Assembly (NCBI GenBank): GCA_024280885.1 | Contig: JAJRPF010000055.1 | Coordinates: 39,674-103,673 of the forward strand | Direction: 5' to 3' | Length of the DNA stretch: 64,000 nt | Origin: Planctomycetota bacterium | Lineage (GTDB): Bacteria > Planctomycetota > JAJSAM01 > JAJVHW01 | Shown here: piece by piece, positions 8,059-61,354 of the stretch | How the letters are laid out: the number at the start of each line of letters is the position of its first letter | Position numbering within the stretch: the first letter of the stretch is position 1 | Notes under the pieces: model-generated | What the model was told of the DNA's origin: nothing | The model's database searches: none | The model's input: only the letters and a program-made list of their open reading frames with translations | Translations under genes and position numbers: made by a program

Positions 8059-8070
8059 CGGAGGGTCCGA

Positions 8071-9093
8071 TCAGGCGGAGGCCAGCAGATCGGCTTGTTC
8101 GGTTGCACGCACGACTTCGGCAACGATGGCATCCGACTCCACGCCGTCGGCCTCCGCTTCGAAGTTACGGATCATGCGATGGCGCAGGACGGAGAGCGCA
8201 TCGCGTTCAACGTCGCGGAACGAGACGTTGAAGCGGCCCTCGAGCAGGGCGCGTACCTTGCCGAGCAGGATCAGCGCCTGCGCGCCGCGCGGGGACGAAC
8301 CGAAGCGCACGTACTTGTTGATAAGGTCGGTGGCGAATTCGGAACCCGGATGGGTCGCGATCACGAGTCGCGTCGCGTAGTCCGCAACGTGCGGCGCAAC
8401 GGCGACGTCGCGGACGAACGAACGCCAGGCCGAGACCTCTTCGCTATCCATCACGCGCTCCGCCACGGCGTTCTCGCGCCTGGTCGTGCGGGCGATGACT
8501 TCGTTCAATTCCTCGCGCGATCCGTAGCGCACGATCACCTTCACCATGAAGCGATCGAGTTGAGCCTCGGGCAGCGGGTACGTGCCCTCCATGTCGATCG
8601 GATTCTGTGTCGCGATCACGAGGAATGGCTCGGGCAAGAGTCGGGTGTCGCCACCCACTGTAACGCTGTGTTCCTGCATCGCTTCGAGCAATGCGCTTTG
8701 CGTCTTGGGTGTGGCGCGGTTGACCTCGTCGGCGAGCACGATATTCGCGAAGATGGGGCCCTTGCGGAACACCATCACGCGCTTGCCTGCGTCGTCCTCG
8801 GTCACGATGGTCGTACCGACGACGTCCGCAGGCATGAGATCCGGCGTGAACTGGATGCGTGCGAACTCGAGGTGCATCGCGTCGGAGAGCGTGCGCACGA
8901 GCATCGTCTTGCCGAGTCCCGGCACGCCTTCGAGCAGGATGTTCCCACCCGCGAAGAAGGTGCGCAGGACGGTGTCCAGGACATCGTCCTGACCGACGAT
9001 GACGCGCGCGAGCTGATGGCGCACCGCGCCGTAGCGTTCGCGGAAGAGATCCGCGCGTTCACGTGCATCCGCGGGCATCTGGAACGTACTCAC
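8071..9093 (-). CDS. MoxR-family AAA+ ATPase
   Basis: Walker A LLEGVPGLGKT, Walker B VLADEVNRA, MoxR-type sensor region; probable GTG start at 9093 overlapping the upstream stop (GTGA), with GGAGGA 6-10 nt upstream (ORF track start 9108 is TTG). Confidence 0.85.
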   Translation of the reverse strand: MSTFQMPADARERADLFRERYGAVRHQLARVIVGQDDVLDTVLRTFFAGGNILLEGVPGLGKTMLVRTLSDAMHLEFARIQFTPDLMPADVVGTTIVTEDDAGKRVMVFRKGPIFANIVLADEVNRATPKTQSALLEAMQEHSVTVGGDTRLLPEPFLVIATQNPIDMEGTYPLPEAQLDRFMVKVIVRYGSREELNEVIARTTRRENAVAERVMDSEEVSAWRSFVRDVAVAPHVADYATRLVIATHPGSEFATDLINKYVRFGSSPRGAQALILLGKVRALLEGRFNVSFRDVERDALSVLRHRMIRNFEAEADGVESDAIVAEVVRATEQADLLASA

Positions 9094-30997: not shown

Positions 30998-33004
30998 ATG
31001 CCGAGCATGGAAACACTGATCACAGGCGCAGCCATCTTGGGGGCCGTGTTCTTCCTCGGAATGGCCGTCCTCGTCTTCATCTCCCGCATCTACCGCAAGG
31101 TGGACCAGGGTAAGGCGCTGATCGTCAACACGATGGCTCAAGAGCCGGACGTCACATTCACCGGACGCCACGTCATTCCGGTCTTTCACCGAGCCGAGGT
31201 AATGGACATCTCGGTCAAGACGATCGAGCTCGACCGGCGCGGCAAGGAAGGCCTCATCTGCGGCGACAACATCCGCGCCGATATCAAGGTCATCTTCTTC
31301 GTCCGCGTCAGCAAGACGAAGGAGGACGTGCTCAAGGTCGCGCAGGCGATCGGCTGCGTCCGCGCGTCGGAACAGCGAACACTGGAAGACCTCTTCATCG
31401 CCAAGTTCTCGGAAGCCTTGAAGACCGTCGGCAAGCAACTCGATTTCATCGATCTGTACACCAAGCGCGACGAGTTCCGCGACCAGATGATCCAGCTGAT
31501 CGGGCGCGATCTGAACGGTTACGTCCTGGAAGACGCGGCGATCGATTACCTCGAACAGACGCCGCTTGAGATGCTCGATGAGCACAACATCCTCGACGCT
31601 GAGGGCATCCGCAAGATCACCGACCTCACGACGAAGGAACACATCCGCACCAACCTCTTCACAAACGAAGAGACGATGAAGATCAAGAAGCAAGATGTCG
31701 AGCGCGCCGAGGCGGTCTTCGCGCTGGAACGACAGGAGGCCGAGGCGAAGGCGAAGCAAGAGCGCGAGATCCGCACGGTGCAGGCGCGCGAAGCCGCCGA
31801 AACCCATAGCGTCGAGGCCGAGGAACGCCTGAAGGCCGAAGGTGCCCGGATCAAGACCGACGAGGAGCTCGGCATCCAGGAACAGAACAAGATGCGTCAG
31901 ATCGAAGTCGCGGAGAAGAACCGCGAACGCGTCATCGGCGTCGAGGAAGAGCGCGTCCTGAAGGACCGGCAGCTCGAGGCGATCGCCCGCGAGAGGGTCA
32001 CGGAACTCGAAGACATCGCGAAGGAGAAGGCGCTTGAGGTCGAACGCAAGCTGATCCAAGAGGTCATCCGCGAACGCGTGGCCGTTGAGAAATCGGTCGC
32101 CGTCGAAGAAGAGGCGATCAAGGAGATCCGCGTCGTAGAGGAGGCCAGCCGCACGAAACAGTCGGCTGTCATCACCGCGGAGGCGGAAGCGCAAGAGGCG
32201 CTGATCAAGGTCACGACAGCGGCAGAGGCCGAAGAGGCGGCCGCGCGTCACGCCGCCAAGAAGCGCGTTGTTCTTGCCGAAGCGGAACTGGAAGCGTCCG
32301 ACAAGGAAGCCGCCGCGAAGATCCGTCTGGCCGAGGGCATCCAGGCCCACGAAGCCGCCACGGGACTCGCAGCCGCGCGCGTCAAAGAAGCCGACGCGAC
32401 CGCGCACGAGAAGCACGGCTTGGCCGACGCGAAGGTGCGGCGCGAGATCGGCGTGGCCGACGGCATCGCCATCAAGGAGAAAATGTCCGCCGAGGCCGAT
32501 GGTCTCACGGAGAAGGCCGAGGCCATGAAGCTGCTGGACGGGGTCGGTCGCCAGCACGAGGAGTTCCGCATCCAACTGGAGAAGGACAAGGACGTCGAGA
32601 TCGCGGCGATCGACGCGCAGCGGCGTATCGCAGAAGCACAGGCCGAGACGCTCGGCGAGGCGTTCAAGTCGGCGGACATCGACATCGTCGGCGGCGACGG
32701 ACAGTTCTTCGACCGGATCGTCGGTGCGGTTGGACGGGGCAAGGCCATCGATGGGTTCATGCGCGGTAGCGACACGGCGCAGACCATCTTGGGCGACTAC
32801 ACCGAGGGCCGACGTAGTCTGCCGGAAGACGTGAAGGACATCCTCTCGGACCCTGCCGTCTCGACGGGTGACCTCTCCAATCTCACACTCTCAGCACTCT
32901 TCCTGAAGCTCATGCAAGGTGCAGATGGCGACACGCGCGAGAAGCTCTCGAAGCTCGCCGAACACGCCAAGGATCTGGGCCTGACGGACGCCAAGAAGAA
33001 CTAG
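30998..33004 (+). CDS. Flotillin-like SPFH/band-7 protein (YqiK family)
   Basis: N-terminal TM helix, SPFH domain (ALIVNTMAQEPDVTFTGRHVIPVFHRAEVMDISVKTIEL...), then ~350 aa of EA-rich coiled coil typical of flotillins. Confidence 0.85.
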   Translation: MPSMETLITGAAILGAVFFLGMAVLVFISRIYRKVDQGKALIVNTMAQEPDVTFTGRHVIPVFHRAEVMDISVKTIELDRRGKEGLICGDNIRADIKVIFFVRVSKTKEDVLKVAQAIGCVRASEQRTLEDLFIAKFSEALKTVGKQLDFIDLYTKRDEFRDQMIQLIGRDLNGYVLEDAAIDYLEQTPLEMLDEHNILDAEGIRKITDLTTKEHIRTNLFTNEETMKIKKQDVERAEAVFALERQEAEAKAKQEREIRTVQAREAAETHSVEAEERLKAEGARIKTDEELGIQEQNKMRQIEVAEKNRERVIGVEEERVLKDRQLEAIARERVTELEDIAKEKALEVERKLIQEVIRERVAVEKSVAVEEEAIKEIRVVEEASRTKQSAVITAEAEAQEALIKVTTAAEAEEAAARHAAKKRVVLAEAELEASDKEAAAKIRLAEGIQAHEAATGLAAARVKEADATAHEKHGLADAKVRREIGVADGIAIKEKMSAEADGLTEKAEAMKLLDGVGRQHEEFRIQLEKDKDVEIAAIDAQRRIAEAQAETLGEAFKSADIDIVGGDGQFFDRIVGAVGRGKAIDGFMRGSDTAQTILGDYTEGRRSLPEDVKDILSDPAVSTGDLSNLTLSALFLKLMQGADGDTREKLSKLAEHAKDLGLTDAKKN

Positions 33005-33012
33005 GCCGACCC

Positions 33013-36000
33013 GTGTCCGACGACAAACAGTCAGCCAACGCAGACCCCGGGGGCGGAGCGCAGACGATCGAAGAGGGGACCTACGAGGTCATCCGCAACC
33101 GGCTTCTCTCCCACGGGAAGGAGCTGGCGGGGAAGGCCGACTCTCTCAACGAAGCGCGCATCGAGATCTTCGGCGGTTCGCGCATGTCGATCATCGGCAA
33201 CGAGCGTGTGCGCACGGAGAACAACTGTGTGCCGCGCGATATCGTCGCAATCGGCAACGAGATCCTCTTCGGCTACAACGTCTTCCTCGGGCTCAAGACC
33301 GAGACGAAGCTCGCTGACGTCTTCTCACTGCAGCGGTTCGAGGCAACCGCGACCGGGTTTCAGTTCTCCGCCGCAACCGGCGCAGAGGGGCCGATCTCCG
33401 GTCGCAACCCGGTGGCTGACGAGGTCTTTCAGAAGCATTTCCGCGACCTCTATCAGTACTACAAGGATGCGAAGCTGCAGTCCCTCCGCAAGGTGGACGG
33501 CAAGCTGCTCGCGATCTTCCAGGTGGGGCGCTACCTGACCGACGTCAAGGGCTTCCAGTGGGCACTCGGAGCCGATGGATCGGTCACGTACATCGACAAC
33601 CTGGGTGATCGCCACAACCGTTACCCACCGACGCACGACTTCGAATGGACCGCGACGACGCGCGAGAATCACATCAGCGGGCAACACCCGCACGTCTCCG
33701 TTCTCGACGAGGTCTTCGTCGAGACGGTGGGTGGCGATCTGACGGTCAAGGTCGAAGACAATACGACCGACGGACTCGGTATCTATCGCGAGCCGGTGGT
33801 CGACGCCGATCAGGCGCTCGACGACGCACAGATCGACTACGCGAAGCTTGGCTCGCTGATCCTCATGCGCGTCAAGCCATACCTCGAAGAGGAGCGCCGC
33901 TACCTCGTCTTCAACACGCTGACGCGACGCGTTCATCGCATCGACGCGATCGGCAACGCTTGCGTCCAGTTGCCCGAAGACCACGGCATCATCTTCCCTG
34001 GCGGTTACTACCTGCAGCGCGGCGAGACGAAGGTCTTCGACGCCAACATCGAAGGCATGACGATCGAGCGCGTCGTGCACTCCCCCAACGGCGAGGACGT
34101 GCTCTACGTCTTCCACCGCACGCGCGATGGCGTCTACGTCCTCCTGCCGTACAACATGATCCGCAAGGAAGTGGATACGCCGCTGCACTGCCGCGGCTTC
34201 TGCCTCTTTGAAGACGGGCGTATGATCCTTCTGCGCGCGAGCGGTGACGAGCCCACACGCGTCCACGCAATGCAGATCTGGCAGACGCCGTTCACGAGTG
34301 ACGTCTTTGCTGCACAGGCCCCGACAGGCGACTCGTATCTCGAGAAGATCGGCAACGCAGATCTCGTGCGCGGGATCTCGGATTGCCTCTCGATCCGGCG
34401 CATGATCGAGGAGCAATCCCCGACACGCGAGATGTACGAGGAGTTGATCGCCGCGACGACGCGCGTTCTCGACCACTACCACTGGCTCGCCGCCACGGAG
34501 ATCGGCGATTTCCAAGCGACGTTGCGCGAGGTGCTGCAGACGGCCGAGTTGGTTGTGGACGAGTTCGAGAAGGTGCAGGTGCTACGCGGTGATGCGGCGA
34601 AGGCCATGGCCGTTGCCGAGGAACGCAAGACCGAGCTCTTCAGATCCATCCGTCCGAGCGAGTGGAAGTCGGTCGACGACTTTGTCGGCGCCCTCTCGGG
34701 GATGCGCCAGGAGCGCGGGCGGCTGATCACTCTGCGCGCGGTTCGTTACGTGGACGTCGCGCGCATCGAGCGCTTCGAGGAAGAGGTCGTCCAGCGCTTT
34801 GGCGAGGTCAGCGCGAAGGCCGTTGACTTCCTCGTCGACGCGGATGCTTTGCGTCCCTATCACGTTCGCATCGAGGAGGTCGAAGCCGACATCGAGAGCG
34901 TCACGAAGGTAACAGACGCCGTGCCGCTGGCGGAGTCGCTTGAGTCGATTGGCGAGGGTCTCGATCTGCTCACCGAGGTCGTCGGCGGTCTGGAGATCGA
35001 CGACACGACCGTGCGGACACAGATCCTGGAGTCGATCAGCGAGGCGATGGCCGCGCTGAACCGTGTTCGCGCCCTGGTCACGGCACGCCGGCGTGAGCTG
35101 GGGCACAAGGAAGGCGTGGCCGAGTTCGGCGCGCAATTCGCTCTCTTCTCGCAGAGCGTGGCGTCCGCGCTGGCGCTGGCGGAGACACCCTCGAAATGCG
35201 ACGACCAGATGTCTCGCTTGCTCGTGCAACTCGAAGAGCTCGAAGCGAAATTCAGCGAGTTCGACGATTTCCTTGAGCAACTGACCACGAAGAGGGAAGA
35301 GGTCGTCGAGGCGCTTGGTGGCAAGAAGCAGATGTTGTTGGACCAACGTCAGCGACGGGCCCAGCAGTTGATGCAGGCCGTGGAGCGCATCCTGGGCGGC
35401 GTCGCGCGGCGCGCGAGTGCGTTCAGCGAGATCGACGACCTGAACGCGTACTTCGTGTCCGACCCGATGATCCTGAAGGTGCGCGATCTGGCCGAGAAAC
35501 TCCGCGACCTCGACGACTCGGTCCGCGCGGACGAGGCGGACTCGCGCCTGAAGTCTGCTCGCGAAGATGCCGTGCGCTCACTGCGTGACAAGCGCGACAT
35601 CTTCGAGGAGGGCGGCGCGGTCATCCGTCTGGGCAAGCACGCGTTCAGCGTCAACACGCAAACCCTCGATCTTACGATGGTGCCGCACGCCGACGGGATC
35701 GCACTGCACCTGACCGGTACGGACTTCCGCGAACAGGTCGAAGACGACGCCTTCGCAGCGACTCGTACGTACTGGTCGCAGGACGTGGTCTCCGAGACCG
35801 CAGAGGTCTACCGCGCCGAGTATCTTGCGTACTCGCTACTCGCCGCCGCCGAGCGCGGTGAGGACGGCCTGAACATGGCGCGCTTGACCGAGGCTGCGCT
35901 CGACGAGACAAAGCTCCTCGCAGTCGTACGCGAGGCCGCGGGGACACGCTACGACGAAGGCTATGAACGCGGTGTTCATGACCACGATGCGGCACTGATA

Positions 36001-38571
36001 CTGGGGCGCGTTGTCGGTCTCTATCGTTCGGCTGGGCTCTTGCGTTTCGCGCCGGCAGCGCGCGCCGCAGCATGCCTGTCGTGGGCGTTTGGACCGGAGG
36101 ATCAGTCCGCTGCGCGCGCGCGTCTTCGCCGTCGGGCGCAGAGCTTGCAACGACTCCGACAAGCGTTCACCCAGAGCGACGCGATCGTGTTGCTCGAACG
36201 CGATCTGACCGAGATCGTCGTGGCGTTCCATGCTGATGCGGGGCTCGAAGTGAGTGAAGGGGACGGACGCGTCGCCGGCCGCTATCTCTTCGAGCAACTC
36301 GGTATCGCGGAGGAACGCTTCGTCGCAGGGGGAGAGGCGTCGGGCGTTCTCTCCGCCTTCCTTGCGCATGTGGACTCGCTCGGGTCGCGACGGGACCTCG
36401 AAGAGGATCTCGAACGACTCGACGGCGAGTTGGCGCAGCAGCACGCACTGCTCTCGGCGTGGCTGACAGCATGGGCGGACTCGCGCGACGAAGCAGAGGC
36501 CGATGCGGCCCGTGCCGTGCTGCCCGAGGCTGTCGCGTTGCAACTGATCGGCGAACGCTTGCCGCGCGAAGTGCAGACGGCGACTTCGCGGACGACCGTC
36601 GAGGGACTGCTCGGTCAGCACAAGCGGATCGCAGAGCGTCAGATGGACGTTCGGCTGGACGCATTTCTCGGTCGACTCTCGCGCTTCGCACACGAGCGGG
36701 TGCCTGGCTATCGCGCCTACCAGACGCGCCGCGCCAAGTTGCTTGCCCGTGAGAAGAGCCGCCTCCGGATCTCGGAGTTCATGCCGCGGGTGCTTTCGTC
36801 ATTCGTACGCAACCGCCTGATCGACGAGGCGTACCTGCCCCTGATCGGGGACAATCTCGCGAAGCAACTCGGCGCCCGCGGCGCGGCGAAGCGCACGGAC
36901 CTGATGGGGCTCTTGCTCCTCATCTCGCCCCCCGGCTACGGCAAGACGACGTTGATGGAGTACATCGCGAACCGCCTCGGGTTGGTCTTCATGAAAATCA
37001 ACGGTCCGGCGTTGGGGCATTCCGTCACGTCGCTCGATCCGGGCGAGGCCCCGAATGCCACGGCGCGTCAGGAAGTCGAGAAGATCAACCTGGCGCTCGA
37101 GATGGGCAATAACGTGTTGCTCTACCTCGACGACATCCAGCACACGCACCCAGAGTTGCTCCAGAAGTTCATCTCTCTGTGTGACGCCCAGCGCAAGATC
37201 GAGGGCATGTGGCGCGGGACGACGCGCACATACGACCTGCGCGGAAAGAAGTTCGTCGTCTGCATGGCAGGCAATCCCTACACGGAATCGGGCGAGCGGT
37301 TCCAGGTGCCGGACATGCTGGCGAATCGCGCCGACGTCTACAATCTGGGCGATGTGCTCGGCGGCAAGGAAGAGCTCTTCGCGCTCAGCTACATCGAGAA
37401 TGCGCTCACGTCGAATACGGTGCTGGCCCAGATCGCCACACACGACCACCGCGACATTCATCCGCTCGTGCGCATGGCGCAGGGGGCGGAGATCCCGGCC
37501 TCGGAATTGAACCACCAGTACTCGCGCGTTGAACTCGACGAGTTGCTCTCCGTCCTGCGCAAGGTCCTGCGTGTCCAGGAGGTCCTACTCGCCGTCAATC
37601 GCGAGTACATCCGTTCCGCGTCGATGGACGACGACTATCGCACCGAGCCGCCGTTCCAGTTGCAGGGCAGCTATCGCAACATGAACAAGCTGGCCGAGAA
37701 GATCGTGCCGGTGATGAACGACGCCGAGCTCGAGGCACTGCTTGTCGATCACTATCTGGGAGAGGCGCAGACGCTGACGTCGGGGGCGGAGCAGAATCTG
37801 CTCAAGCTCTCCGAACTGCGCGGGCAGATGACGGAGGCCGAGCAGGCGCGGTGGACGGAGATCAAAGATGCGTTCGCGCGCCGCCGCATGATGGGTGGCG
37901 ACGACGACGATCCGGTTGTCCGCGTGACCTCGCAGCTCATTCGCTTGGGCGACAGCGTCGGCAGCATCGGAGAATCGATCCGCGAGGCCGCAGACGAGAG
38001 CCGCATTCGCCAGAAATCGTGGGAGCAAGCGCTGGTGACGCGTCGCGAAGCACAGGTCGAGACCGATGCCGCGCTCGTCGCCGCGCGTGACGATGAGGGC
38101 GAAAGGGACGCCGCCGCCGACGCTCCCGCACTCGCTGATGCACTGGCGCAGACGCTCGGTCCGGTCCTCGCGCAGCTCGAGGCGACACTGGTCACGCTCT
38201 CGAATCGGCAAACCCTGGCCGATTCCGCGCCATCAGCGGCGGCACGTGACGTGGCGGCTGGTTCAGCCGAAGACGATGCTGCAGACAAGGTCGCCACGCT
38301 CGCCGCGCGGCAGTCGGAGATCATCGAGGTGGGGCTCCTGCCCGTGCTGCGTTCCATGAACCAGAACCTCAAGATCTCGCGTGCTGTGTGGGAGCGTCTG
38401 GAGGGGGTGCAGCGACGGCTCGACGCGCTTGCTGGCAAGTCGGCAGCGAAGCGTGCCAAGAAGACTGCCAAGAAGGCGTCGAAGTCGGCGTCCAAGAAGT
38501 CCGGGGCGCAAGCGGCGGCGAAGCGGTCGTCCCCGTCGGGTGACGGTAACTCGGATCCGTCACCTGCGTAG
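33013..38571 (+). CDS. Giant (1852-aa) protein: N-terminal beta-rich domain, long coiled-coil middle, C-terminal MoxR/dynein-like AAA+ ATPase domain, basic C-terminal tail
   Basis: Walker A ISPPGYGKTT, Walker B LLYLDDIQH, sensor region FVVCMAGNPYTESGERFQVPDMLANRADVYNLG; starts 8 bp after the flotillin stop (GTG 33013); such proteins are often labelled 'DNA repair ATPase' without evidence. Confidence 0.7.
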   Translation: MSDDKQSANADPGGGAQTIEEGTYEVIRNRLLSHGKELAGKADSLNEARIEIFGGSRMSIIGNERVRTENNCVPRDIVAIGNEILFGYNVFLGLKTETKLADVFSLQRFEATATGFQFSAATGAEGPISGRNPVADEVFQKHFRDLYQYYKDAKLQSLRKVDGKLLAIFQVGRYLTDVKGFQWALGADGSVTYIDNLGDRHNRYPPTHDFEWTATTRENHISGQHPHVSVLDEVFVETVGGDLTVKVEDNTTDGLGIYREPVVDADQALDDAQIDYAKLGSLILMRVKPYLEEERRYLVFNTLTRRVHRIDAIGNACVQLPEDHGIIFPGGYYLQRGETKVFDANIEGMTIERVVHSPNGEDVLYVFHRTRDGVYVLLPYNMIRKEVDTPLHCRGFCLFEDGRMILLRASGDEPTRVHAMQIWQTPFTSDVFAAQAPTGDSYLEKIGNADLVRGISDCLSIRRMIEEQSPTREMYEELIAATTRVLDHYHWLAATEIGDFQATLREVLQTAELVVDEFEKVQVLRGDAAKAMAVAEERKTELFRSIRPSEWKSVDDFVGALSGMRQERGRLITLRAVRYVDVARIERFEEEVVQRFGEVSAKAVDFLVDADALRPYHVRIEEVEADIESVTKVTDAVPLAESLESIGEGLDLLTEVVGGLEIDDTTVRTQILESISEAMAALNRVRALVTARRRELGHKEGVAEFGAQFALFSQSVASALALAETPSKCDDQMSRLLVQLEELEAKFSEFDDFLEQLTTKREEVVEALGGKKQMLLDQRQRRAQQLMQAVERILGGVARRASAFSEIDDLNAYFVSDPMILKVRDLAEKLRDLDDSVRADEADSRLKSAREDAVRSLRDKRDIFEEGGAVIRLGKHAFSVNTQTLDLTMVPHADGIALHLTGTDFREQVEDDAFAATRTYWSQDVVSETAEVYRAEYLAYSLLAAAERGEDGLNMARLTEAALDETKLLAVVREAAGTRYDEGYERGVHDHDAALILGRVVGLYRSAGLLRFAPAARAAACLSWAFGPEDQSAARARLRRRAQSLQRLRQAFTQSDAIVLLERDLTEIVVAFHADAGLEVSEGDGRVAGRYLFEQLGIAEERFVAGGEASGVLSAFLAHVDSLGSRRDLEEDLERLDGELAQQHALLSAWLTAWADSRDEAEADAARAVLPEAVALQLIGERLPREVQTATSRTTVEGLLGQHKRIAERQMDVRLDAFLGRLSRFAHERVPGYRAYQTRRAKLLAREKSRLRISEFMPRVLSSFVRNRLIDEAYLPLIGDNLAKQLGARGAAKRTDLMGLLLLISPPGYGKTTLMEYIANRLGLVFMKINGPALGHSVTSLDPGEAPNATARQEVEKINLALEMGNNVLLYLDDIQHTHPELLQKFISLCDAQRKIEGMWRGTTRTYDLRGKKFVVCMAGNPYTESGERFQVPDMLANRADVYNLGDVLGGKEELFALSYIENALTSNTVLAQIATHDHRDIHPLVRMAQGAEIPASELNHQYSRVELDELLSVLRKVLRVQEVLLAVNREYIRSASMDDDYRTEPPFQLQGSYRNMNKLAEKIVPVMNDAELEALLVDHYLGEAQTLTSGAEQNLLKLSELRGQMTEAEQARWTEIKDAFARRRMMGGDDDDPVVRVTSQLIRLGDSVGSIGESIREAADESRIRQKSWEQALVTRREAQVETDAALVAARDDEGERDAAADAPALADALAQTLGPVLAQLEATLVTLSNRQTLADSAPSAAARDVAAGSAEDDAADKVATLAARQSEIIEVGLLPVLRSMNQNLKISRAVWERLEGVQRRLDALAGKSAAKRAKKTAKKASKSASKKSGAQAAAKRSSPSGDGNSDPSPA

Positions 38572-43832: not shown

Positions 43833-43894
43833 AGTCCGCTCAACCGTTCCAGACGCGTGGCTCTCCGCCGGCGGCTCGGCTCGGAATCGAACGA

Positions 43895-43920
43895 GGCCGC
43901 CGGGCGACTGCCCGGCGGCC
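43895..43920. terminator. Perfect 10-bp GC hairpin (ggccgccggg-cgactg-cccggcggcc) between convergent genes; likely bidirectional terminator
   Basis: Located 63 bp after the + strand HEAT gene stop and 32 bp after the - strand peroxiredoxin stop; weak U-tract. Confidence 0.4.
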
Positions 43921-43951
43921 TCCATGAATCTGTCCGGACGGACCTGACGGA

Positions 43952-44560
43952 TCAGCCGTTCAGCGCTTCGTGTACCTTGCCGACCATTTCCGGGCCCGGC
44001 GTCAAGGTCGCGTCGCCGTCGTCTTTCCACTTCGAGGGGCAACCTTCGTTGGCCTTCTTCGAGAGGTAGACGTTGGCCTTGAACTTGCGCAGCAACTCAT
44101 CGATGTTGCGGCCCATGTTGTAGAAGTTGACCTCGGAGTTCATCAGCACGCCCTGCGGGTTGATGATGAACGTGCCGCGCAGACACAGGCCGGACGTCTT
44201 GTCGTAGACGCCGAACTGCCGACCGAGCTTGCCCGTCGGGTCGGCCCCCATCGGGTACTTGACGTCGGCCAGCTCACCCTCGTGGCGCTGCCACGCAAGG
44301 TGCACGAACTCGGTGTCGGTGCTGACGGTCACGATCTCGCAACCCATCCGTTCGAAGCGCGTGTACTGCTCTGCCAGAGCAGCGAATTCGGTCGCTCAGA
44401 CGAATGTGAAGTCGGCGGGATAGAAGAAGAGAACCGTCCACTTCCCGGCCTCCTTGGCCTCCGCCAGACTGAACCTCCCGAATCCGCCAGTCTTGGGGTC
44501 GAACGTGTTGATCTCGAAGTCCTTGACCTCGCGACCGAGGCCTACCTTTGGCTTGCTCAT
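43952..44560 (-). CDS. prxU: Selenocysteine-containing typical 2-Cys peroxiredoxin (AhpC/Prx1 family; PrxU-like), in-frame TGA = Sec at the peroxidatic position
   Basis: Track splits it into 44396..44692 and 43952..44347, which share a frame and are separated only by TGA at 44396-44398. The TGA sits exactly where the peroxidatic Cys belongs (FYPADFTFV-U-ATEFAAL; canonical FTFVCPTE). Resolving Cys present (NEGCPSKW). ATG 44560 preceded by AGGAGGA. Confidence 0.8.
44366..44382 (-). promoter_or_regulatory. Putative bacterial SECIS stem-loop (CUGCUC-UGGCA-GAGCAG) starting 14 nt 3' of the in-frame UGA
   Basis: 6-bp perfect stem with a 5-nt loop containing GG, at the spacing expected for a bacterial SelB-binding hairpin directly downstream of a Sec codon. 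Confidence 0.5.
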
Positions 44561-45175
44561 GTCATCCTCCTGCGGGTTTGCGTTGCATGGGATCTGCGTG
44601 TCCGCGCGTCCACGCGTGCCAGTGTCCACGTCTGCCAGCGCTCGTGCCGGAGAGCGGAGCTCTCCGCGTCGAGGCGCTTCGCAGCACGTCAATGCACCAT
44701 TGAATCACTGCTGAGGGTTCGCGCAGGAATAACTTCGTGGGACCGAGGGCGAGCGAAACGGCGTGGGGCAAGGCGCATCGACGACGCGACTCGCGGTCAT
44801 GATTGAATTGGACGGGGAGCCGAGTCGGGGAGGAGAGGCAACGCAGCCCCACGCCGTCGCAGCCGACCGAGTCCCCGCAGCTAATCCTGCGCGGACCCTG
44901 AGGCCAGACGCGGAGAAGAGGTCGCGGGTAGAGCTGAGTATCCGAATGCAGAGTCAAATCACGCGCTCCATAAAGGCCCCCTCAGGGGTGCCGATATCCA
45001 GTGCAGCGACGGAGCGGGCGGGCCGACAACCCGGACCGAACGCGAACTCGCTGCCTGACACTGCCAGCCCGGGGCGCACCCTTCCCAAAGCCCTCGTGCA
45101 GCTTGCTGCATCGCGCCCTGGGCCCCTCTCCTCCCCTGACACGGCGTTGCTCGGACTCGCGAGCTCGCCTGCGGA

Positions 45176-56396: not shown

Positions 56397-57875
56397 ATGC
56401 AACTCAGTTCTGTCATCAGCTCGGTCATCACTCCGGTCATCAGCGTGTCGGCTTGTGTTGGCGCGCTCCTTGCCGTATCCGCGGGGCCCGCGCACGCGGA
56501 GTGGATCAACCGGACCGAAAACGTGCCCGTCGCGCGCCTCGTTACGAACCTCGAAGCACGGATTGCGAAGAACCCGCGCGATGCTCAGGCGCACTACGTT
56601 CTGGCGCGGGTTCACAGCATGGCGTGGGCGCACGAGACGGAGGTTGTCGAGATCGAGCCGCCCGCGACAGACGCTGCGCTACCGACCTTCGCACCGTGGC
56701 AGAGTGTTCAGCGCGCACGGGAGGCGCAGAAGGGGCTCGCCGTCTCGGCGCCCTCCGAGACGGCGAAGACGCATTTCCATCGTTCCGTCTCACACTACCG
56801 GACCGCGGCGAAGCTGGACGGGAAGGCGTCGATCCACTTCATGGGGCTCGGGTACATGCTGCAGGACGGTGCGCGTTACGTGCAGTGGTTGCGCACGCCC
56901 GACGGCTCCGAGACGAAGACAAATCTCTCCGACGAGGAGATCGCGCGACACCAGGCGCTGGTCGCACGCCTCACGGCCGAGACGAAGGGCGATCGCGAGG
57001 TCGCGCGACGCAAACTGATCGCGGCGTTGCCCGCTGCCGCAACGGTTCTACGCTGGCACCTGCGGACCGAGGATGCCGGTGAGCGCGCGGCAGTCATCGA
57101 GTTGCTGCGTTACCACTGGCTCGACCTGGCGGCCGCGGCATACCGCAGGTCCCACACAATCGCACTGCCGAGCGATCTGGCGCAGGAGGCCCACGCCGAC
57201 GCGGGCGACAAGCCGCTGAGTCAGGAGTCCGGAGCGGCCCTCCTGGCAATCCTGCGGACGCGCGAGATGTCGAAGTCGATCGAGCAGGAGATCGCAACAC
57301 TCGAAGTAGTGCTGAAGAAGCTGAAGGCGCTCCCGCGCTGGGAGACGCCGATCGTCTTTCCGCTCTCCGGACAGCGACCACTCGTCGATCTGATCCATCC
57401 GACACGGCGCGTGGACTTCGATCTTGACGGTGACGGCGTCGCCGGGCGCTGGCCCTGGGTTCGGAGCGACGTCGGCATCCTGGTCTGGGACCCCGATGGC
57501 GACGGTATCGTCTCGTCGGGACGCGACCTCTTTGGCGGACGCACATGGTGGATCCGCTGGCCGGATGGATATGCGCCTCTCGCCGCCCTCGACGACAACT
57601 CCGATGGACACCTCGCCGGTGACGAGCTTCGCGGTCTCGGCGTCTGGGTCGATCGCAACGGCAATGCGATCAGTGATGCTGGCGAAGTGCGACCGGTCAC
57701 CGAGCTCCTCATCGCGGCGATCAGCGTGCGCAGCGACCACGAGCACGATGGGGTCCCCGCGACTGTTCGCGGGATCACATTCGCGGACGGTGCGACAGTG
57801 CCAACCTACGACTGGACGCCCGAGCGCGCAGTATCGGCGACAGAGAAGTCGCTACGAAAGCGTCTTGCTGAGTAG
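56397..57875 (+). CDS. Hypothetical secreted protein with C-terminal Asp-rich (calcium-binding-like) repeats
   Basis: Signal peptide ...GALLAVSAGPAHA; helical N-terminal half; C-terminal DxDGDG motifs (DLDGDGVAG, DPDGDGIVS, DDNSDGHLAG); ATG 56397 preceded by GGGAGA. Confidence 0.55.
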   Translation: MQLSSVISSVITPVISVSACVGALLAVSAGPAHAEWINRTENVPVARLVTNLEARIAKNPRDAQAHYVLARVHSMAWAHETEVVEIEPPATDAALPTFAPWQSVQRAREAQKGLAVSAPSETAKTHFHRSVSHYRTAAKLDGKASIHFMGLGYMLQDGARYVQWLRTPDGSETKTNLSDEEIARHQALVARLTAETKGDREVARRKLIAALPAAATVLRWHLRTEDAGERAAVIELLRYHWLDLAAAAYRRSHTIALPSDLAQEAHADAGDKPLSQESGAALLAILRTREMSKSIEQEIATLEVVLKKLKALPRWETPIVFPLSGQRPLVDLIHPTRRVDFDLDGDGVAGRWPWVRSDVGILVWDPDGDGIVSSGRDLFGGRTWWIRWPDGYAPLAALDDNSDGHLAGDELRGLGVWVDRNGNAISDAGEVRPVTELLIAAISVRSDHEHDGVPATVRGITFADGATVPTYDWTPERAVSATEKSLRKRLAE

Positions 57876-59291
57876 TTCCTTCATCTCCGGTACGCCGCCC
57901 TGGAAGAGCAGGTAGCCGTCGTGCGGTTCGCCGTCGGTGATCTCGCCGGCGACCGGCGTTGACATCAACTCGCGGACGCGGTCCGGATCGTCGGGATGCA
58001 GCCCGAGTGCCCACGACAGCTTGATGTACGCGGCTTCCGGCAGCATGTTCGCAAGGGGGATGACGCCGAGTTGGAGGATCTCGCGTCCGGTCTCGTAGAC
58101 GTTCATCTGCACGAAACCCCAAAGGGTCTGCAGCGTCATGTAGACCTGCACTCCGGCGTCGCGTGCGCGTTCGAGTGCCGGATAGACGAGCCGGTTGACA
58201 TGCCCGAGTCCGGTTCCCGCGATGATGATCCCGCGGTACCCCTTCTCGACCATCGCATCGACGATGTCAGCCTGCATGTTCGGGTAGTAGTAGAGGATCG
58301 TGACGCGATCGCAGAAGGCGGCTTGGATGGTGACTTCGCGATCGTCGCGGCGCGGTTTCCAGGTCTCGTGGATGTGCGTGAGTCCTTCGTCGTTCACCAT
58401 CGCGAGTGGCACGTCGCCGAGTGTGCGGAAGGTGCTCCGGTACGAGCTGTGCATCTTGCGCACGCGGGTGCCGCGATGCAGCAGGTTGTAGCTGTGCGAT
58501 GTGGGCCCGAGCATGCAGACCATGACCTCGGCGATCGGGCCGTGAGCCGCAGCGTAGGACGCGGCGATGAGATTGCGCGCGGCATCGGACGACGGACGAT
58601 CCGAAGAACGCTGACTGCCGACCATCACGATCGGTACGGGTGGGTCCTGCACCATGTACGAGAGCGCCGCCGCCGTGTGATGCATCGTGTCCGTGCCGTG
58701 CCCGACCATCACGCCGTCGCAGCCTTCGCGGATGGCCTTGCCGATCCGTTCGGCAAGGACGAGGTATTCCTCGCGCCCCATATTCTCCGAGAAGACGCCG
58801 AAGAGCTTCTCGGTCTCGAGATTGCAGACGTCGGCGAGTTCCGGTACGGAGCCGTAGAGCTCGCCGGGGGTGAACGCCGGGATCACGGCTCCCGTGCGAT
58901 AGTCGAGACGCGATGCGATGGTGCCGCCCGTCCCAAACAGCACGACGTTCGGCTTCGAGTCGTCGCGCGGGAACTCCTTCTCCGGGACCTTGTAGATCGC
59001 CTTGCGATAGCCCGTCTTCGTCAACTCGGTGATCGTGTCGTAGCGCAGCCCGACGTTGTAGCCACTCTCGAGTTTCAGGACGAGATGCTCGGCGTCGGAG
59101 GTCTCCGAGCGCGGGAGTACGAGACCCTCGAAGCGTCCGGATGAAGTTACCGCGACGACCGTGGACCAGACCGTCACGTGCGACTGTTTCAGAAGGCCGA
59201 GAGCGGGCTCACGATAACCCTTGTAGTCCTCCGCGTCGGCCACCTCGTCCGCGGCCCCAGCTCCGTTCGGCCCAACGCTCTTCGTATTCAT
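57852..59291 (-). CDS. gatD: GatD-like subunit of archaeal-type Glu-tRNA(Gln) amidotransferase (asparaginase-fold glutaminase)
   Basis: N-terminal GatD-specific domain followed by an asparaginase domain with VVLFGTGGTIAS and ...GHGTDTM... motifs; ATG 59291 overlaps the gatE stop (ATGA). Confidence 0.75.
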   Translation of the reverse strand: MNTKSVGPNGAGAADEVADAEDYKGYREPALGLLKQSHVTVWSTVVAVTSSGRFEGLVLPRSETSDAEHLVLKLESGYNVGLRYDTITELTKTGYRKAIYKVPEKEFPRDDSKPNVVLFGTGGTIASRLDYRTGAVIPAFTPGELYGSVPELADVCNLETEKLFGVFSENMGREEYLVLAERIGKAIREGCDGVMVGHGTDTMHHTAAALSYMVQDPPVPIVMVGSQRSSDRPSSDAARNLIAASYAAAHGPIAEVMVCMLGPTSHSYNLLHRGTRVRKMHSSYRSTFRTLGDVPLAMVNDEGLTHIHETWKPRRDDREVTIQAAFCDRVTILYYYPNMQADIVDAMVEKGYRGIIIAGTGLGHVNRLVYPALERARDAGVQVYMTLQTLWGFVQMNVYETGREILQLGVIPLANMLPEAAYIKLSWALGLHPDDPDRVRELMSTPVAGEITDGEPHDGYLLFQGGVPEMKELLSKTLS

Positions 59292-61354
59292 GACGCGCTC
59301 CCCTCTGTCGCGGCCGCCAGCGCTTCGTTTACGGCGGTGCGCACGTCGTCGATCGTCGCGCGTCCGAGCACGTACGGCATCACCTCGCCGAGGGCACGGC
59401 GCAGGAGTGCATCTTCGTCGAGGCGCTCCGCGCCATGGAGCGTCCGCACTTCGTGAAGGCGCTCGCCCATGAGGTCGTCGTCGTCATCGCCGCCGCGAAA
59501 GATCGCGAGGACGATGTCCGCGTCACGCTCGGGCTCGCGAAGGAGATCCTCGAACGCCGCCTCGAATGCCTCGGGCAGGATCACGCCCTCGTCCACGTCG
59601 CGCACGAGCGGGGCCAGACGCTCGGCATCGGGCAACCCGACAAGGACGCCCGCGCGGCGCAGATAGGGGATGCGCTTCTCCAGCGCAAATGCCAGCCGCC
59701 GCGCCGTCACGAGCGTGGCGGGTGCCAGGTCATCGTAGAGTTGTGACCACTCCGACATCGCCAGCCGGCGGGCAAGAGCGAGTGGCAGCCCTGCCGCGAC
59801 GTAGCGATCCTCGCGGACCCAGGGGCAGTCCTTGACCGCGTGTTCGATGCGATCAACCCATGCGTCGAGGATCTTGATCGGCGGCGTATCCGTGTCGGGA
59901 TACATGCGCTCGGGACCCGGGAGGATGCGTTCGAGACCGGTCGTGCAATCGCCGTACATCTGGCGCGTCTCGGAGGGGACACCGATGAGCGCGTCCTGCG
60001 CGCGAGTGAGAAGCTCGCGGCACGCGGTCGCCACGTCGTCTTCCGGGCCCCAGACCAGAATGACCGCGTCGCCCTCCGCGGCGCTAACCGCCGCTCGGAC
60101 AGCGGACCAGATCGATTCCTCGACACCGACGCTCTCGTCGGTATGCGTCATGAACGGTTGTGCCGTCAGGCATGCGATCACACGCAGGCGCTCGCTGAAC
60201 TCCTGCGCGAAGACGACACCGGGCTGCGTGCGCACGGTCAACAGTCCACCGAAGTGCGGAAGCCGCACGGCGGCAACCGTGTCACCGAATGCGCGCGCGT
60301 TCTGGAGCGGTTCGTATGCGGAGTCCGCCACCGCAACTCCGACGAGTGCGATCTGTGACGAGTTCCAAGGCGTGGCTTCGTCCTCCGGCACGACCATCGC
60401 GTGCGTGCAACCGCGCGTTCGCAGCGTCTCGCGGATGCGCAGCAACTCGAGCTGTCGGAAGGCCTCGATGTGCACGAGCTTCGGCAACACCTTGTGCTGC
60501 GGAACCCCCTTGATCTCGATGCGGCGACTCCCGGCGATGGAGACGTTCACATCCTGGCGCGCCGCACCGCTCCCGCGTCGCACCTTGCCACTTGCGCGTG
60601 CCACCGCCGCGATCAGACGCCCGCCCGACTCGACGTCGCGCGGGGTCATCAGCTCCGGTTCCGTGACGGTCTCGATGAGCGGCATTCCGAGGCGATCGGT
60701 GCGGAACACGATCTTGTGGCCGATGTCCGAGATCTCGCGGCACGAGTCCTCTTCCAGCGTGAGCTGACGCAGGTTGAGCATCGCGTCGGCGCCCAGCGAG
60801 CTCTCGCGAAACGGGATCGCACCACCGACCGCGATCATCCCGGTGCGCTGGAACCCGGTGGGGATGGAGCCATCGAGGTACTGCTTGCGCATCACCTGCA
60901 GTTCGGAGACGAGTGCCATGCCGAACATCGAGGCGATCTCGAGCGACGACTTCACGGCTTCCTCGTCGATCGGAAACGGCGGCGTGTCGTCGATCTCGTA
61001 TGTGCACACACACGCCCGCGCGACGCGATAGACGATCTGCTTCTCGGTCTTGAACTCCATCAGCGCGCAGCCGTCGTAGCGCCCGAGCTCCGAGAGCGTC
61101 GGCCGCATGTGGCGCAGGATCTCGGCGTCCACGCGATCAGTGAACACGCCGGCGGGACAGCGACAGAAGAGCTTGCGGCGCGTGTCGAGTTGTTGATGCA
61201 CTTCGAGGCCGCACATGAAGCCGATTTCGTCGTACTCCGCGTCGGTCATGTCACCGAAATCACGCCACGGGAAGTGGAGCGCCGGATCGGTTCGAGGATT
61301 CAGATCGATGGGAGCGGGAGGGGCGGCTTCCCGCTTGAAATGGCGCCGCGTCAC
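59288..61354 (-). CDS. gatE: GatE-like subunit of archaeal-type Glu-tRNA(Gln) amidotransferase
   Basis: GatB/GatE catalytic motif CGLEVHQQLDTRRKLFCRCP near the N-terminus, RMYPDTDTPP motif, C-terminal helical (YqeY/GatB-like) tail; GTG 61354 overlaps the glnS stop (alternative ATG 61249). Confidence 0.75.
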   Translation of the reverse strand: MTRRHFKREAAPPAPIDLNPRTDPALHFPWRDFGDMTDAEYDEIGFMCGLEVHQQLDTRRKLFCRCPAGVFTDRVDAEILRHMRPTLSELGRYDGCALMEFKTEKQIVYRVARACVCTYEIDDTPPFPIDEEAVKSSLEIASMFGMALVSELQVMRKQYLDGSIPTGFQRTGMIAVGGAIPFRESSLGADAMLNLRQLTLEEDSCREISDIGHKIVFRTDRLGMPLIETVTEPELMTPRDVESGGRLIAAVARASGKVRRGSGAARQDVNVSIAGSRRIEIKGVPQHKVLPKLVHIEAFRQLELLRIRETLRTRGCTHAMVVPEDEATPWNSSQIALVGVAVADSAYEPLQNARAFGDTVAAVRLPHFGGLLTVRTQPGVVFAQEFSERLRVIACLTAQPFMTHTDESVGVEESIWSAVRAAVSAAEGDAVILVWGPEDDVATACRELLTRAQDALIGVPSETRQMYGDCTTGLERILPGPERMYPDTDTPPIKILDAWVDRIEHAVKDCPWVREDRYVAAGLPLALARRLAMSEWSQLYDDLAPATLVTARRLAFALEKRIPYLRRAGVLVGLPDAERLAPLVRDVDEGVILPEAFEAAFEDLLREPERDADIVLAIFRGGDDDDDLMGERLHEVRTLHGAERLDEDALLRRALGEVMPYVLGRATIDDVRTAVNEALAAATEGSAS

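What the first reader, a model, noticed from the sequence alone, without database searches (positions are those of the whole stretch)
43952..44560. Peroxiredoxin with in-frame TGA at the peroxidatic cysteine plus a SECIS-like hairpin: probable selenoprotein PrxU split into two ORFs
Two ORFs (44396..44692 and 43952..44347) are in the same frame, separated only by TGA at 44396-44398. The TGA falls exactly on the peroxidatic residue of the AhpC/Prx1 motif (FTFV-U-ATEF versus canonical FTFVCPTE). The resolving Cys (EGCPSKW) is intact downstream. A 6-bp stem/5-nt loop (CUGCUC-UGGCA-GAGCAG) starts 14 nt after the UGA, matching bacterial SECIS placement. Sec-containing Prx (PrxU) is known from a few anaerobes but is routinely mis-annotated as a truncated pair. 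It also implies a complete Sec pathway elsewhere in this genome.
Basis: partly seen in the sequence, partly recalled or inferred. Interest (0 to 1): 0.75.

Follow-up and report, generated by a model that had tools for sequence, protein, structure and literature searches.

The report
Selenocysteine peroxiredoxin gene with SECIS hairpin
This is one intact gene for a peroxide-detoxifying enzyme whose catalytic cysteine is replaced by selenocysteine, encoded by a recoded UGA stop codon; the reading is correct, but it is an ordinary new member of a selenoprotein family known since 2001.

Summary
Minus-strand gene 44560..43952 encodes a 202-aa AhpC/Prx1-type peroxiredoxin. It is interrupted only by TGA at 44398..44396, which is codon 55. 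That codon aligns with the peroxidatic Cys of solved AhpC structures. Thr52, Arg128 and the resolving Cys174 are intact.

An 8-bp stem with a GGC loop (44383..44365) starts 13 nt after the UGA. It meets all four published criteria for a bacterial SECIS.

The decisive evidence is comparative. The 80 closest relatives come from species-representative genomes labelled as about nine phylum-level groups. All 80 carry TGA at this codon. The six hairpin codons (GCT GCT CTG GCA GAG CAG) show almost no synonymous variation. The other 101 conserved codon columns vary freely. Three of four Cys-encoding homologues with the same or similar amino acids lack the hairpin.

TGA is also the normal stop of 17 of 25 genes in the window, including this gene's own stop. 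Recoding is therefore local, not a genome-wide reassignment.

Not shown: selA, selB, selC and selD were not found in the 64 kb window, and the rest of the genome is not available. The protein also scores below NCBI's cut-offs for both PrxU and AhpC. It is best filed under the general Sec-Prx (TxxU) family. Interest is low.

The parts
43952..44560 (-). Complete coding sequence of the Sec-containing peroxiredoxin: 202 aa plus the terminal TGA, with Sec at residue 55
   Evidence: Translation. Pfam AhpC-TSA E 1.9e-34. PDB AhpC 1yf1 E 5e-47 over residues 23-196. GC3 is 0.75-0.88 on both sides of the TGA.
44396..44398 (-). In-frame UGA, codon 55, read as selenocysteine at the peroxidatic position of the PxxxTxxU motif
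   Evidence: Aligns with the peroxidatic Cys of AhpC structures. TGA is at the same column in 80/80 relatives. Cys homologues carry TGC or TGT there.
44365..44383 (-). SECIS hairpin GCUGCUCU-GGC-AGAGCAGU. It has an 8-bp stem and its loop lies at 44375..44373. It encodes AALAEQ.
   Evidence: Free energy is -8.3 kcal/mol for the 17-nt core and -11.1 for 21 nt. Spacing from UGA to loop is 20 nt. The loop fits U-G-[G/U]-C-A. It meets the bSECIS model of PMC13188914. The six codons are used in one form in 81 sequences, against a mean of 1.16 bits elsewhere. 98.6% of cells are paired.
44039..44041 (-). Codon of the resolving cysteine Cys174 (EGCPSKW)
   Evidence: Aligns with the C-terminal Cys in EVCPAKW of S. 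typhimurium AhpC. Invariant in 81 sequences as TGC or TGT.
44566..44571 (-). Shine-Dalgarno-like AGGAGG, 5 nt upstream of the ATG at 44560
   Evidence: Read directly from the sequence. Homologue alignments begin at residues 1-8.
43952..43954 (-). True stop codon of the gene. It is also TGA, but no SECIS-type hairpin lies in the first ~28 nt after it; the next strong stem is the 13-bp terminator-like one listed below.
   Evidence: TGA ends 17 of 25 Pfam-supported genes in the window.
43893..43922 (.). GC-rich perfect hairpin (core GGCCGCCGGGC-AGTC-GCCCGGCGGCC) in the 119-nt gap between the convergent prx and HEAT-repeat genes. It is a possible transcription terminator.
   Evidence: RNA fold gives a 13-bp stem; the 72-nt segment folds at -41.3 kcal/mol. 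The consensus terminator scan did not call it because it lacks a T-run. Function is inferred only.

Best explanation
This is one gene for a typical 2-Cys (AhpC/Prx1-type) peroxiredoxin whose peroxidatic residue is selenocysteine.

Proposed recoding mechanism: when the ribosome reaches UGA at codon 55, the hairpin 13 nt downstream acts as a bacterial SECIS. It recruits SelB-GTP-Sec-tRNA(Sec), Sec is inserted, and translation continues to the real stop at 43954..43952.

Proposed catalytic mechanism: the selenolate of Sec55 is positioned by Pro48, Thr52 and Arg128 and attacks a hydroperoxide. The resulting selenenic acid is resolved by Cys174 of the partner subunit, giving a selenenylsulfide. A thioredoxin-type reductant encoded elsewhere then reduces it.

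Shown here: the reading frame, the homology, the catalytic-column alignment, conservation of the TGA, RNA-level constraint on the hairpin, and its fit to the SECIS model.

Inferred: actual Sec insertion, the presence of selABCD in this genome, the catalytic cycle and the reductant.
For: - The TGA is in frame and is the only interruption.
- Homology: AhpC/TSA domain E 1.9e-34 and AhpC crystal structures E 5e-47. The TGA falls on the peroxidatic Cys. The resolving Cys and the catalytic Arg are aligned.
- The genome scan used peptide patterns that do not include the Sec site. All 80 best loci carry TGA at this codon. By their record titles they are Planctomycetota, Acidobacteriota, Deltaproteobacteria/Geobacteraceae, Nitrospirota, Krumholzibacteria, Rokubacteria/NC10, Binatia, Gemmatimonadota and Eisenbacteria.
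- The six hairpin codons have codon entropy 0-0.1 bit in 81 sequences. The 101 other conserved degenerate columns average 1.16 bits, and none reaches 98% use of one codon.
- Cys-form controls L082, L083 and the L077 paralogue encode the same or similar peptide with other codons. They have no hairpin (-4.9 to -6.4 kcal/mol, against -8.8 to -14.1).
- The hairpin meets all four bSECIS criteria quoted in PMC13188914. Its geometry is close to that of E. coli fdhF, whose GGUC loop lies at nt 22-25 and here GGC lies at nt 24-26.
- Downstream of the TGA, differences between the window and the syntenic relative L001 fall 19/8/38 on codon positions 1/2/3. That part is therefore under protein-coding selection.
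- TGA is the commonest true stop in the window, 17 of 25 genes.
- Sec-Prx with a TxxU motif is an established family. A member was verified experimentally in Eubacterium acidaminophilum, as cited in PMC13188914. Members are catalogued in Geobacter, Anaeromyxobacter and Syntrophus (PMC1794560).
Against: - No selA, selB, selD or tRNA-Sec was found in the 64 kb window or in the flanks of related loci. The Sec trait of this genome is therefore assumed, not shown.
- The helix has no covariation. Six of eight pairs never vary and no pair changes on both sides.
- The 66-nt fold is no more stable than shuffles, z = -0.34.
- No Rfam family matches.
- All comparison genomes are metagenome-assembled.
- There is no experimental evidence for Se incorporation in this clade.
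Confidence: 0.93

Rival explanations
1. The gene is a relic. This lineage has lost the Sec-decoding machinery, so the TGA now terminates translation and the gene is a recently inactivated pseudogene.
For: No Sec machinery is visible in the window. Decay does occur in the family: L087 has CGA instead of TGA and a broken N-terminus.
Against: The window copy has a consensus hairpin, an intact frame and an RBS. GC3 is 0.85-0.88 downstream of the TGA. Substitutions against the syntenic relative L001 are dominated by the third codon position. A 64 kb window would not be expected to contain the sel genes anyway.
Confidence: 0.04
2. The TGA is a sequencing or assembly error, or a private nonsense mutation of TGC or TGT. 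The hairpin is a coincidence of a GC-rich coding sequence.
For: A single base separates TGA from TGC or TGT. The local fold is not more stable than shuffles.
Against: 80/80 independent genomes have the same TGA and the same 18-nt hairpin, with frozen synonymous sites. Three of four Cys forms lack the hairpin.
Confidence: 0.01
3. UGA is decoded here by something other than the Sec system. Candidates are genome-wide reassignment to Trp or Gly (codes 4 or 25), or near-cognate read-through that inserts Trp or Cys.
For: Four database homologues were translated with W at this position by their gene callers.
Against: TGA ends 17 of 25 well-supported genes in the window, including this gene itself. 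A Trp or Gly at the peroxidatic position would kill catalysis. The conserved downstream hairpin is the signature of SelB-dependent recoding.
Confidence: 0.01
4. Two separate products are made: a 54-aa N-terminal peptide, and a 131-aa protein started at the internal ATG 44347.
For: Both appear as ORFs in mechanical ORF calling.
Against: Neither fragment would contain a complete thioredoxin fold or the catalytic residue. The internal Met is not conserved as a start: the column is Met in 84% of sequences, inside a conserved R-F-x-K-M-G stretch. Selection acts on the whole frame across the TGA.
Confidence: 0.01

Closest known systems
Sec-containing peroxiredoxin family (Prx, PF00578, TxxU motif) of the prokaryotic selenoproteome catalogues; reference protein WP_011365628.1 as listed in PMC13188914 and PMC9312934
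   Same: AhpC/TSA domain. Sec replaces the peroxidatic Cys in PxxxTxxU. A bSECIS lies directly after the UGA. Cys homologues exist at the same column. The family is found in Geobacteraceae and other Deltaproteobacteria, as here in L006, L041 and L046.
   Different: Nothing essential. This copy comes from an unsampled Planctomycetota-like genome: the best genomic relative is 84% identical and syntenic, and the window's neighbouring gene is not on record in the protein collection. The clade carries U-A-T-E instead of the canonical C-P-T-E.
PrxU of Eubacterium acidaminophilum (Sohling et al. 2001, cited in PMC13188914); NCBIfam NF040737 peroxi_PrxU
   Same: A peroxiredoxin with Sec at the peroxidatic position, thought to depend on thioredoxin. 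The HMM aligns over residues 6-199.
   Different: Scores 175 bits against the curated cut-off of 270, so it is not an equivalog. The model is 233 positions long and the match starts at position 36, so the PrxU N-terminal extension is missing.
AhpC, alkyl hydroperoxide reductase subunit C (TIGR03137; PDB 1yf1, 4ma9, 1n8j)
   Same: Best structural and sequence relative, E 5e-47. Same 2-Cys architecture and the same C-terminal xxCPxKWxxGxxTLxPxxxxVGK tail with the resolving Cys.
   Different: Sec instead of Cys at the peroxidatic site and Ala instead of Pro after it. Scores 189 bits against a cut-off of 272. No AhpF gene lies next to it in the window, and no AhpF, thioredoxin reductase or thioredoxin family appears among the families listed for 96 flanking ORFs of relatives.
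E. coli fdhF SECIS, the reference bacterial SECIS
   Same: A hairpin inside the coding sequence, immediately 3' of the UGA. The loop starts with G followed by G or U. The UGA-to-loop spacing is 18 nt in fdhF and 20 nt here.
   Different: There is no bulged U in the stem. The loop is 3 nt (or 5 nt) instead of GGUC. There is no extended lower helix conserved among relatives.

Membership tests
Sec-containing peroxiredoxin (Prx selenoprotein family, TxxU) | AhpC/TSA (PF00578) thioredoxin-fold peroxiredoxin domain | tested here: met
   Pfam PF00578 E 1.9e-34, 118.7 bits against a cut-off of 26. PDB AhpC hits to E 5e-47.
Sec-containing peroxiredoxin (Prx selenoprotein family, TxxU) | In-frame UGA at the peroxidatic Cys column of PxxxTxxC | tested here: met
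   P48-A-D-F-T52-F-V-U55. The position aligns with the peroxidatic Cys of AhpC structures.
Sec-containing peroxiredoxin (Prx selenoprotein family, TxxU) | Sec/Cys pair: homologues with Cys at the same column, and other homologues with TGA | tested here: met
   80/80 genomic relatives have TGA. 115 of 120 database homologues have Cys. Three looked-up homologues and one paralogue (4 genes) are verified as TGC or TGT at the DNA level.
Sec-containing peroxiredoxin (Prx selenoprotein family, TxxU) | Sec-decoding machinery (selA, selB, selC, selD) in the same genome | not testable with these tools
   Only 64 kb is available. The window has no tRNA, no Rfam hit, and no SelA, SelB or SelD by Pfam or tblastn.
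Sec-containing peroxiredoxin (Prx selenoprotein family, TxxU) | Selenium actually incorporated (75Se labelling or mass spectrometry) | not testable with these tools
   Requires an experiment.
Bacterial SECIS consensus (bSECISearch model as quoted in PMC13188914, Fig. 2) | Apical loop of 3-9 nt and upper stem of 4-16 bp | tested here: met
   3-nt loop with an 8-bp stem, or a 5-nt loop with a 6-7 bp stem.
Bacterial SECIS consensus (bSECISearch model as quoted in PMC13188914, Fig. 2) | G in the first two loop positions, following the pattern N1 G [G|U] N N2 with N1-N2 pairable | tested here: met
   U-G-G-C-A in the window and 72 relatives (73 of 81). U-G-U-C-A in 8 relatives.
Bacterial SECIS consensus (bSECISearch model as quoted in PMC13188914, Fig. 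2) | [quoted passage not shown] | tested here: met
   20 nt to the GGC loop, or 19 nt to UGGCA. E. coli fdhF has 18 nt.
Bacterial SECIS consensus (bSECISearch model as quoted in PMC13188914, Fig. 2) | MFE of -7.5 kcal/mol or lower | tested here: met
   -8.3 kcal/mol for the 17-nt core, -10.3 for 19 nt and -11.1 for 21 nt.
Bacterial SECIS consensus (bSECISearch model as quoted in PMC13188914, Fig. 2) | Evolutionary support for the helix | tested here: inconclusive
   There is no covariation; 6 of 8 pairs are invariant. Synonymous sites in the hairpin are frozen, unlike the rest of the gene and unlike three of four Cys forms. This shows RNA-level selection but does not by itself prove pairing.
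PrxU equivalog (NCBIfam NF040737) | Whole-protein score at or above the curated cut-off of 270 bits | tested here: not met
   175.3 bits.
AhpC equivalog (NCBIfam TIGR03137) | Whole-protein score at or above the curated cut-off of 272 bits | tested here: not met
   189 bits.
AhpC equivalog (NCBIfam TIGR03137) | Adjacent AhpF-type flavoprotein reductase gene | tested here: not met
   None in the window. No AhpF, thioredoxin reductase or thioredoxin family appears among the 25 families listed (of 83 matched) for 96 flanking ORFs of relatives.
Typical 2-Cys peroxiredoxin (AhpC/Prx1 subfamily) | Resolving Cys in the C-terminal arm, plus the conserved catalytic Thr and Arg | tested here: met
   Cys174 (EGCPSKW), Thr52 and Arg128 are aligned to AhpC and invariant in 81 sequences.

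The most novel reading that the evidence does not exclude
This U-A-T-E clade may be a distinct Sec-AhpC lineage. It carries a frozen 18-nt SECIS (GCUGCUCUG[G/U]CAGAGCAG) across genomes labelled as about nine phylum-level groups. On this reading it is a self-contained selenoprotein cassette that moves horizontally, and its single SECIS sequence is accepted by very different SelB proteins. That would make it a natural 'universal' minimal bacterial SECIS, and the catalogues have not described it as such. In the neighbour-joining tree Cys forms are interleaved with Sec forms. One Cys form retains the hairpin with a U-A to C-G double change. Both points would then mark repeated Sec-to-Cys reversions.
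Probability: 0.15. Interest if true: 0.4.

Novelty: new member of a known kind. Interest (0 to 1): 0.22.

Why it matters
- Annotation: the two ORF fragments should be merged into one selenoprotein gene with a translation exception at 44398..44396.
- Physiology: the gene predicts that this Planctomycetota-like organism has the Sec-decoding trait. It also predicts that peroxide defence in this organism depends on selenium supply.
- Method: the clade gives a clean example of how frozen synonymous sites reveal an RNA signal inside a coding sequence when covariation is absent.
- Engineering: the invariant 18-nt hairpin could serve as a compact SECIS tag if it proves to be broadly accepted by SelB proteins.

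None of this changes current understanding of selenoproteins.

Tried and rejected
- **Rfam at gathering threshold** over the whole window, and at E<=10 over 44250-44480. The only result was a meaningless miRNA hit at E 6. No Rfam family matched this hairpin.
- **ARAGORN** on the window and 60 related loci found no tRNA and no tRNA-Sec.
- **Pfam scan of about 30 large ORFs, and tblastn with E. coli SelA, SelB and SelD** against the window and all loci found no Sec machinery. The single SelB-like hit, in L041, is LepA/EF4.
- **Thermodynamic significance of the local fold** gave z = -0.34, which is uninformative in 66% GC DNA.
- **Covariation counting** found none, because the helix is invariant.
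- **Looking up the window's neighbouring gene** to identify the source contig: it is not on record.
- **Scan of the window for other TGA-split coding frames** found only this gene. The other three candidates are one pair of abutting genes and two non-coding frames overlapping the HEAT-repeat gene.
- **Census of flanking genes in relatives**, to find a conserved reductase or regulator, found none. ArsP_1 permease (11 of 96) and HMA (9 of 96) occur in a subset only. A first attempt by all-against-all clustering of raw ORFs was swamped by spurious high-GC ORFs.
- **Neighbour-joining tree of Sec and Cys forms**: the largest pure TGA-form clade holds 60 of the 81 Sec sequences, and Cys forms are interleaved. 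The tree is not robust enough to count conversions.
- **Structure prediction** was judged unnecessary given E 5e-47 to solved AhpC structures.

Full report
**1. What is in the sequence**

On the minus strand an ATG at 44560 is preceded by AGGAGG at 44571..44566. It opens a frame that runs to TGA at 43954..43952. The only interruption is TGA at 44398..44396, which is codon 55. The stretch from 44692 to 44561 is only the extension to the first possible TTG. The product is 202 aa, not 203. GC3 is high on both sides of the TGA: 0.75 for the whole upstream stop-to-stop segment and 0.88 downstream.

**2. What the protein is**

With Cys placed at codon 55, the protein matches three kinds of reference:
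- Pfam AhpC-TSA, E 1.9e-34.
- Solved AhpC structures, E 5e-47 over residues 23-196.
- NCBIfam AhpC at 189 bits and PrxU at 175 bits. Both are below the curated equivalog cut-offs of 272 and 270.

In the PDB alignment, FYPADFTFV-[TGA]-ATE lies over FYPADFTFVCPTE. The TGA is therefore exactly the peroxidatic residue. EGCPSKWKDDGDATLTPGPEMVGKV lies over [24 protein letters not shown], so Cys174 is the resolving Cys. Thr52 and Arg128 are in place. This is a typical 2-Cys, AhpC/Prx1-type peroxiredoxin. It is not a curated equivalog of either AhpC or PrxU.

**3. Comparative test of the TGA**

One scan of species-representative genomes used six peptide patterns, none of which covers the Sec site. It returned 242 relatives, of which the best 80 were kept at 68-84% identity. 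Their record titles name these groups:
- Planctomycetota
- Acidobacteriota (Holophagae, Sulfomarinibacteraceae, Thermoanaerobaculia and others)
- Deltaproteobacteria, Geobacteraceae and Geothermobacteraceae
- Nitrospirota and Thermodesulfovibrio
- Krumholzibacteria
- Rokubacteria and NC10
- Binatia
- Gemmatimonadota
- Eisenbacteria

All 80 have TGA at the aligned codon.

The protein database gives full-length homologues at 62-76% identity. Of the top 120, 115 have Cys at this column, 4 have W and 1 has R. Three Cys forms looked up at the DNA level carry TGT or TGC. So does a tandem paralogue in L077. This is the classical Sec/Cys pair signature.

**4. The hairpin**

Counting from the U of UGA, nucleotides 16-34 (GCUGCUCU-GGC-AGAGCAGU, 44383..44365) form an 8-bp stem with a 3-nt loop. 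Alternatively the stem is 6-7 bp with loop UGGCA. Free energy is -8.3 kcal/mol for the 17-nt core and -11.1 for 21 nt.

The bacterial SECIS model quoted in PMC13188914 sets four criteria, and all are met:

| Criterion | Model | Here |
|---|---|---|
| Apical loop | 3-9 nt | 3 nt (or 5 nt) |
| Upper stem | 4-16 bp | 8 bp (or 6-7 bp) |
| Loop pattern | N1 G [G\|U] N N2 | U-G-G-C-A; U-G-U-C-A in 8 relatives |
| Spacing from UGA to loop | 16-37 nt | 20 nt |
| MFE | -7.5 kcal/mol or lower | -8.3 to -11.1 |

For comparison I read E. coli fdhF from NC_000913.3. Its UGA is at codon 140, its GGUC loop lies at nt 22-25 and the spacing is 18 nt.

On its own the structure is not statistically remarkable. 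A 66-nt fold has z = -0.34 against shuffles, and no Rfam family matches.

**5. Why the hairpin is nevertheless real**

I built a codon alignment of the 81 Sec-form genes. The six codons that make the hairpin are GCT GCT CTG GCA GAG CAG, encoding AALAEQ. Each is used in a single form; one sequence has GCC at the first codon, and codon entropy is 0-0.1 bit. The 101 other columns with a conserved, degenerate amino acid average 1.16 bits. None of them reaches 98% use of one codon. The four codons between the UGA and the hairpin (A, T, E, F) vary freely.

The Cys forms give the control. L082, L083 and the L077 paralogue encode CATEFAALAE(K/Q), or CATEFEALAD in L083. They use other codons and have no stable hairpin (-4.9 to -6.4 kcal/mol, against -8.8 to -14.1 in Sec forms).

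A formal pair count gives 98.6% of cells paired. Six of eight pairs are invariant, two vary on one side only (G-C or G-U, and U-A or U-G), and none changes on both sides. The support is therefore RNA-level purifying selection tied to the presence of TGA, not covariation.

**6. Excluding the dull alternatives**

- *Global TGA reassignment.* TGA is the real stop of 17 of 25 Pfam-supported genes in the window, including this gene.
- *Termination at codon 55.* Downstream of the TGA, differences between the window and its closest relative L001 fall 19/8/38 on codon positions 1/2/3. That region is translated and under selection.
- *A private error.* Eighty independent assemblies share the TGA.
- *Other selenoprotein genes nearby.* A scan of the window for other TGA-split coding frames found no further candidate.

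**7. What could not be shown**

The window has no tRNA. It has no SelA, SelB or SelD by Pfam scans of about 30 large ORFs. It has none by tblastn with the E. coli proteins either. The only SelB-like hit in any locus is LepA.

The window's neighbouring gene is not on record in the public protein collection, so the source genome could not be traced. The Sec trait of this organism is therefore inferred from the intact, consensus state of the gene and its SECIS.

L001 shares the neighbouring AAA ATPase (86% identity), the VWA/CoxE-like protein (81%) and a small hypothetical protein (43%) with the window. L001 comes from Planctomycetota MAG Dive96_bin10.89, so the window probably comes from a related planctomycete.

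**8. Context**

The gene stands alone. A 119-nt gap containing a 13-bp GC-rich hairpin separates it from a convergent HEAT-repeat gene. About 600 nt upstream lies a divergent small gene. No AhpF, thioredoxin reductase, thioredoxin or Fur/PerR gene is adjacent. A Pfam census of 96 flanking ORFs from relatives shows no conserved partner. The reductant is therefore unknown. A thioredoxin system is the default inference, based on what is known of AhpC/Prx1 enzymes in general.

**9. Comparison with what is known**

Sec-containing peroxiredoxin (PF00578, TxxU) is listed among the established prokaryotic selenoproteins, with the Eubacterium acidaminophilum enzyme as the experimental case (PMC13188914; PMC9312934). 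A 2006 survey counted 12 bacterial Prx selenoproteins, in Geobacter metallireducens, Anaeromyxobacter, Syntrophus, Syntrophobacter and others (PMC1794560). [quoted passage not shown]

The window gene fits that family on every feature I could test. It does not reach NCBI's PrxU or AhpC equivalog cut-offs. I therefore file it as a new member of the known Sec-Prx kind, in an AhpC-like clade marked by U/C-A-T-E.

**10. Verdict**

The PrxU label is loose. The family is far from rare. The Sec machinery remains to be found. Confidence that this is a genuine SECIS-dependent selenoprotein gene is about 0.93. Interest is low, about 0.2. The most novel reading still open is that the frozen 18-nt SECIS, shared across genomes labelled as about nine phylum-level groups, marks a horizontally mobile cassette with a universally accepted SECIS.

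Noticed in passing
window 57852-63828 (minus strand): Three abutting genes. The first is a GlnRS/YqeY fusion (61351-63828; NF011291, 1092 bits against a cut-off of 681). The second is GatE (59288-61354; TIGR00134 gatE_arch, 397 bits against 320). The third is GatD (57852-59291; TIGR02153 gatD_arch, 477 bits against 324). To my knowledge GatDE is the archaeal Glu-tRNA(Gln) amidotransferase. Here it sits in a genome that looks bacterial (Planctomycetota-like), next to a direct-pathway GlnRS. One literature search found no paper containing the term GatDE.
   Followed up: partly
L081:988-1030 (Logan SRR27730022 contig): A Cys-form homologue (TGT) still carries the hairpin, but with a U-A to C-G double change (GCCGCUCUGGCAGAGCGGC, -14.7 kcal/mol). 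It looks like a fossil SECIS after a Sec-to-Cys conversion. It is the only compensatory change seen in this helix. A FUR-family gene lies directly upstream of this copy.
   Followed up: partly
L087:3001-3597 (JGI 3300021511 contig, protein P0004): This homologue has CGA (Arg) in place of the Sec TGA, with an intact SECIS hairpin. Its N-terminal region does not align with the family. It is probably a decaying copy or an assembly error.
   Followed up: partly
L077:2474 and L077:3142 (Planctomycetota chromosome OZ245838.1): Tandem paralogues about 670 nt apart. One has TGC and no hairpin (GCCGCCCTGGCGGAGCAG). The other has TGA and the consensus hairpin. They form a natural Sec/Cys pair in one genome.
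   Followed up: partly
protein database hits (for example P0005): Four full-length homologues in the protein collection have Trp at the Sec position. Presumably TGA was translated as W by gene callers using an alternative code. No Sec form appears full-length among the top 120. This suggests the family is systematically mis-called in metagenome annotations. The DNA of P0005 was not retrievable.
   Followed up: partly
window 5321-11981 (minus strand): An aerotolerance-type cluster: BatA plus VWA (5321-7186), DUF58 (7183-8058), and a 963-aa VWA/GATase1-like protein (9090-11981). Not examined further.
   Followed up: no
window 30998-38571 (plus strand): An SPFH/Band-7 protein (668 aa) is followed by an 1852-aa protein with DUF3686 ('ATPase involved in DNA repair', E 9e-204), DUF7902 and an AAA domain. 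This is a large conserved pair of unknown function.
   Followed up: no
window 43893-43922: A perfect 13-bp GC-rich hairpin lies in the 119-nt gap between the convergent prx and HEAT-repeat genes. It has no T-run, so the terminator scan did not call it.
   Followed up: partly
flanks of L001-L076 (96 ORFs): In a subset of Sec-Prx loci the neighbouring ORF is an ArsP_1-type permease (11 of 96), carries an HMA heavy-metal domain (9 of 96), or is DUF1028 (7 of 96). This is not universal. It may be a lineage-specific link to metal or metalloid handling.
   Followed up: no
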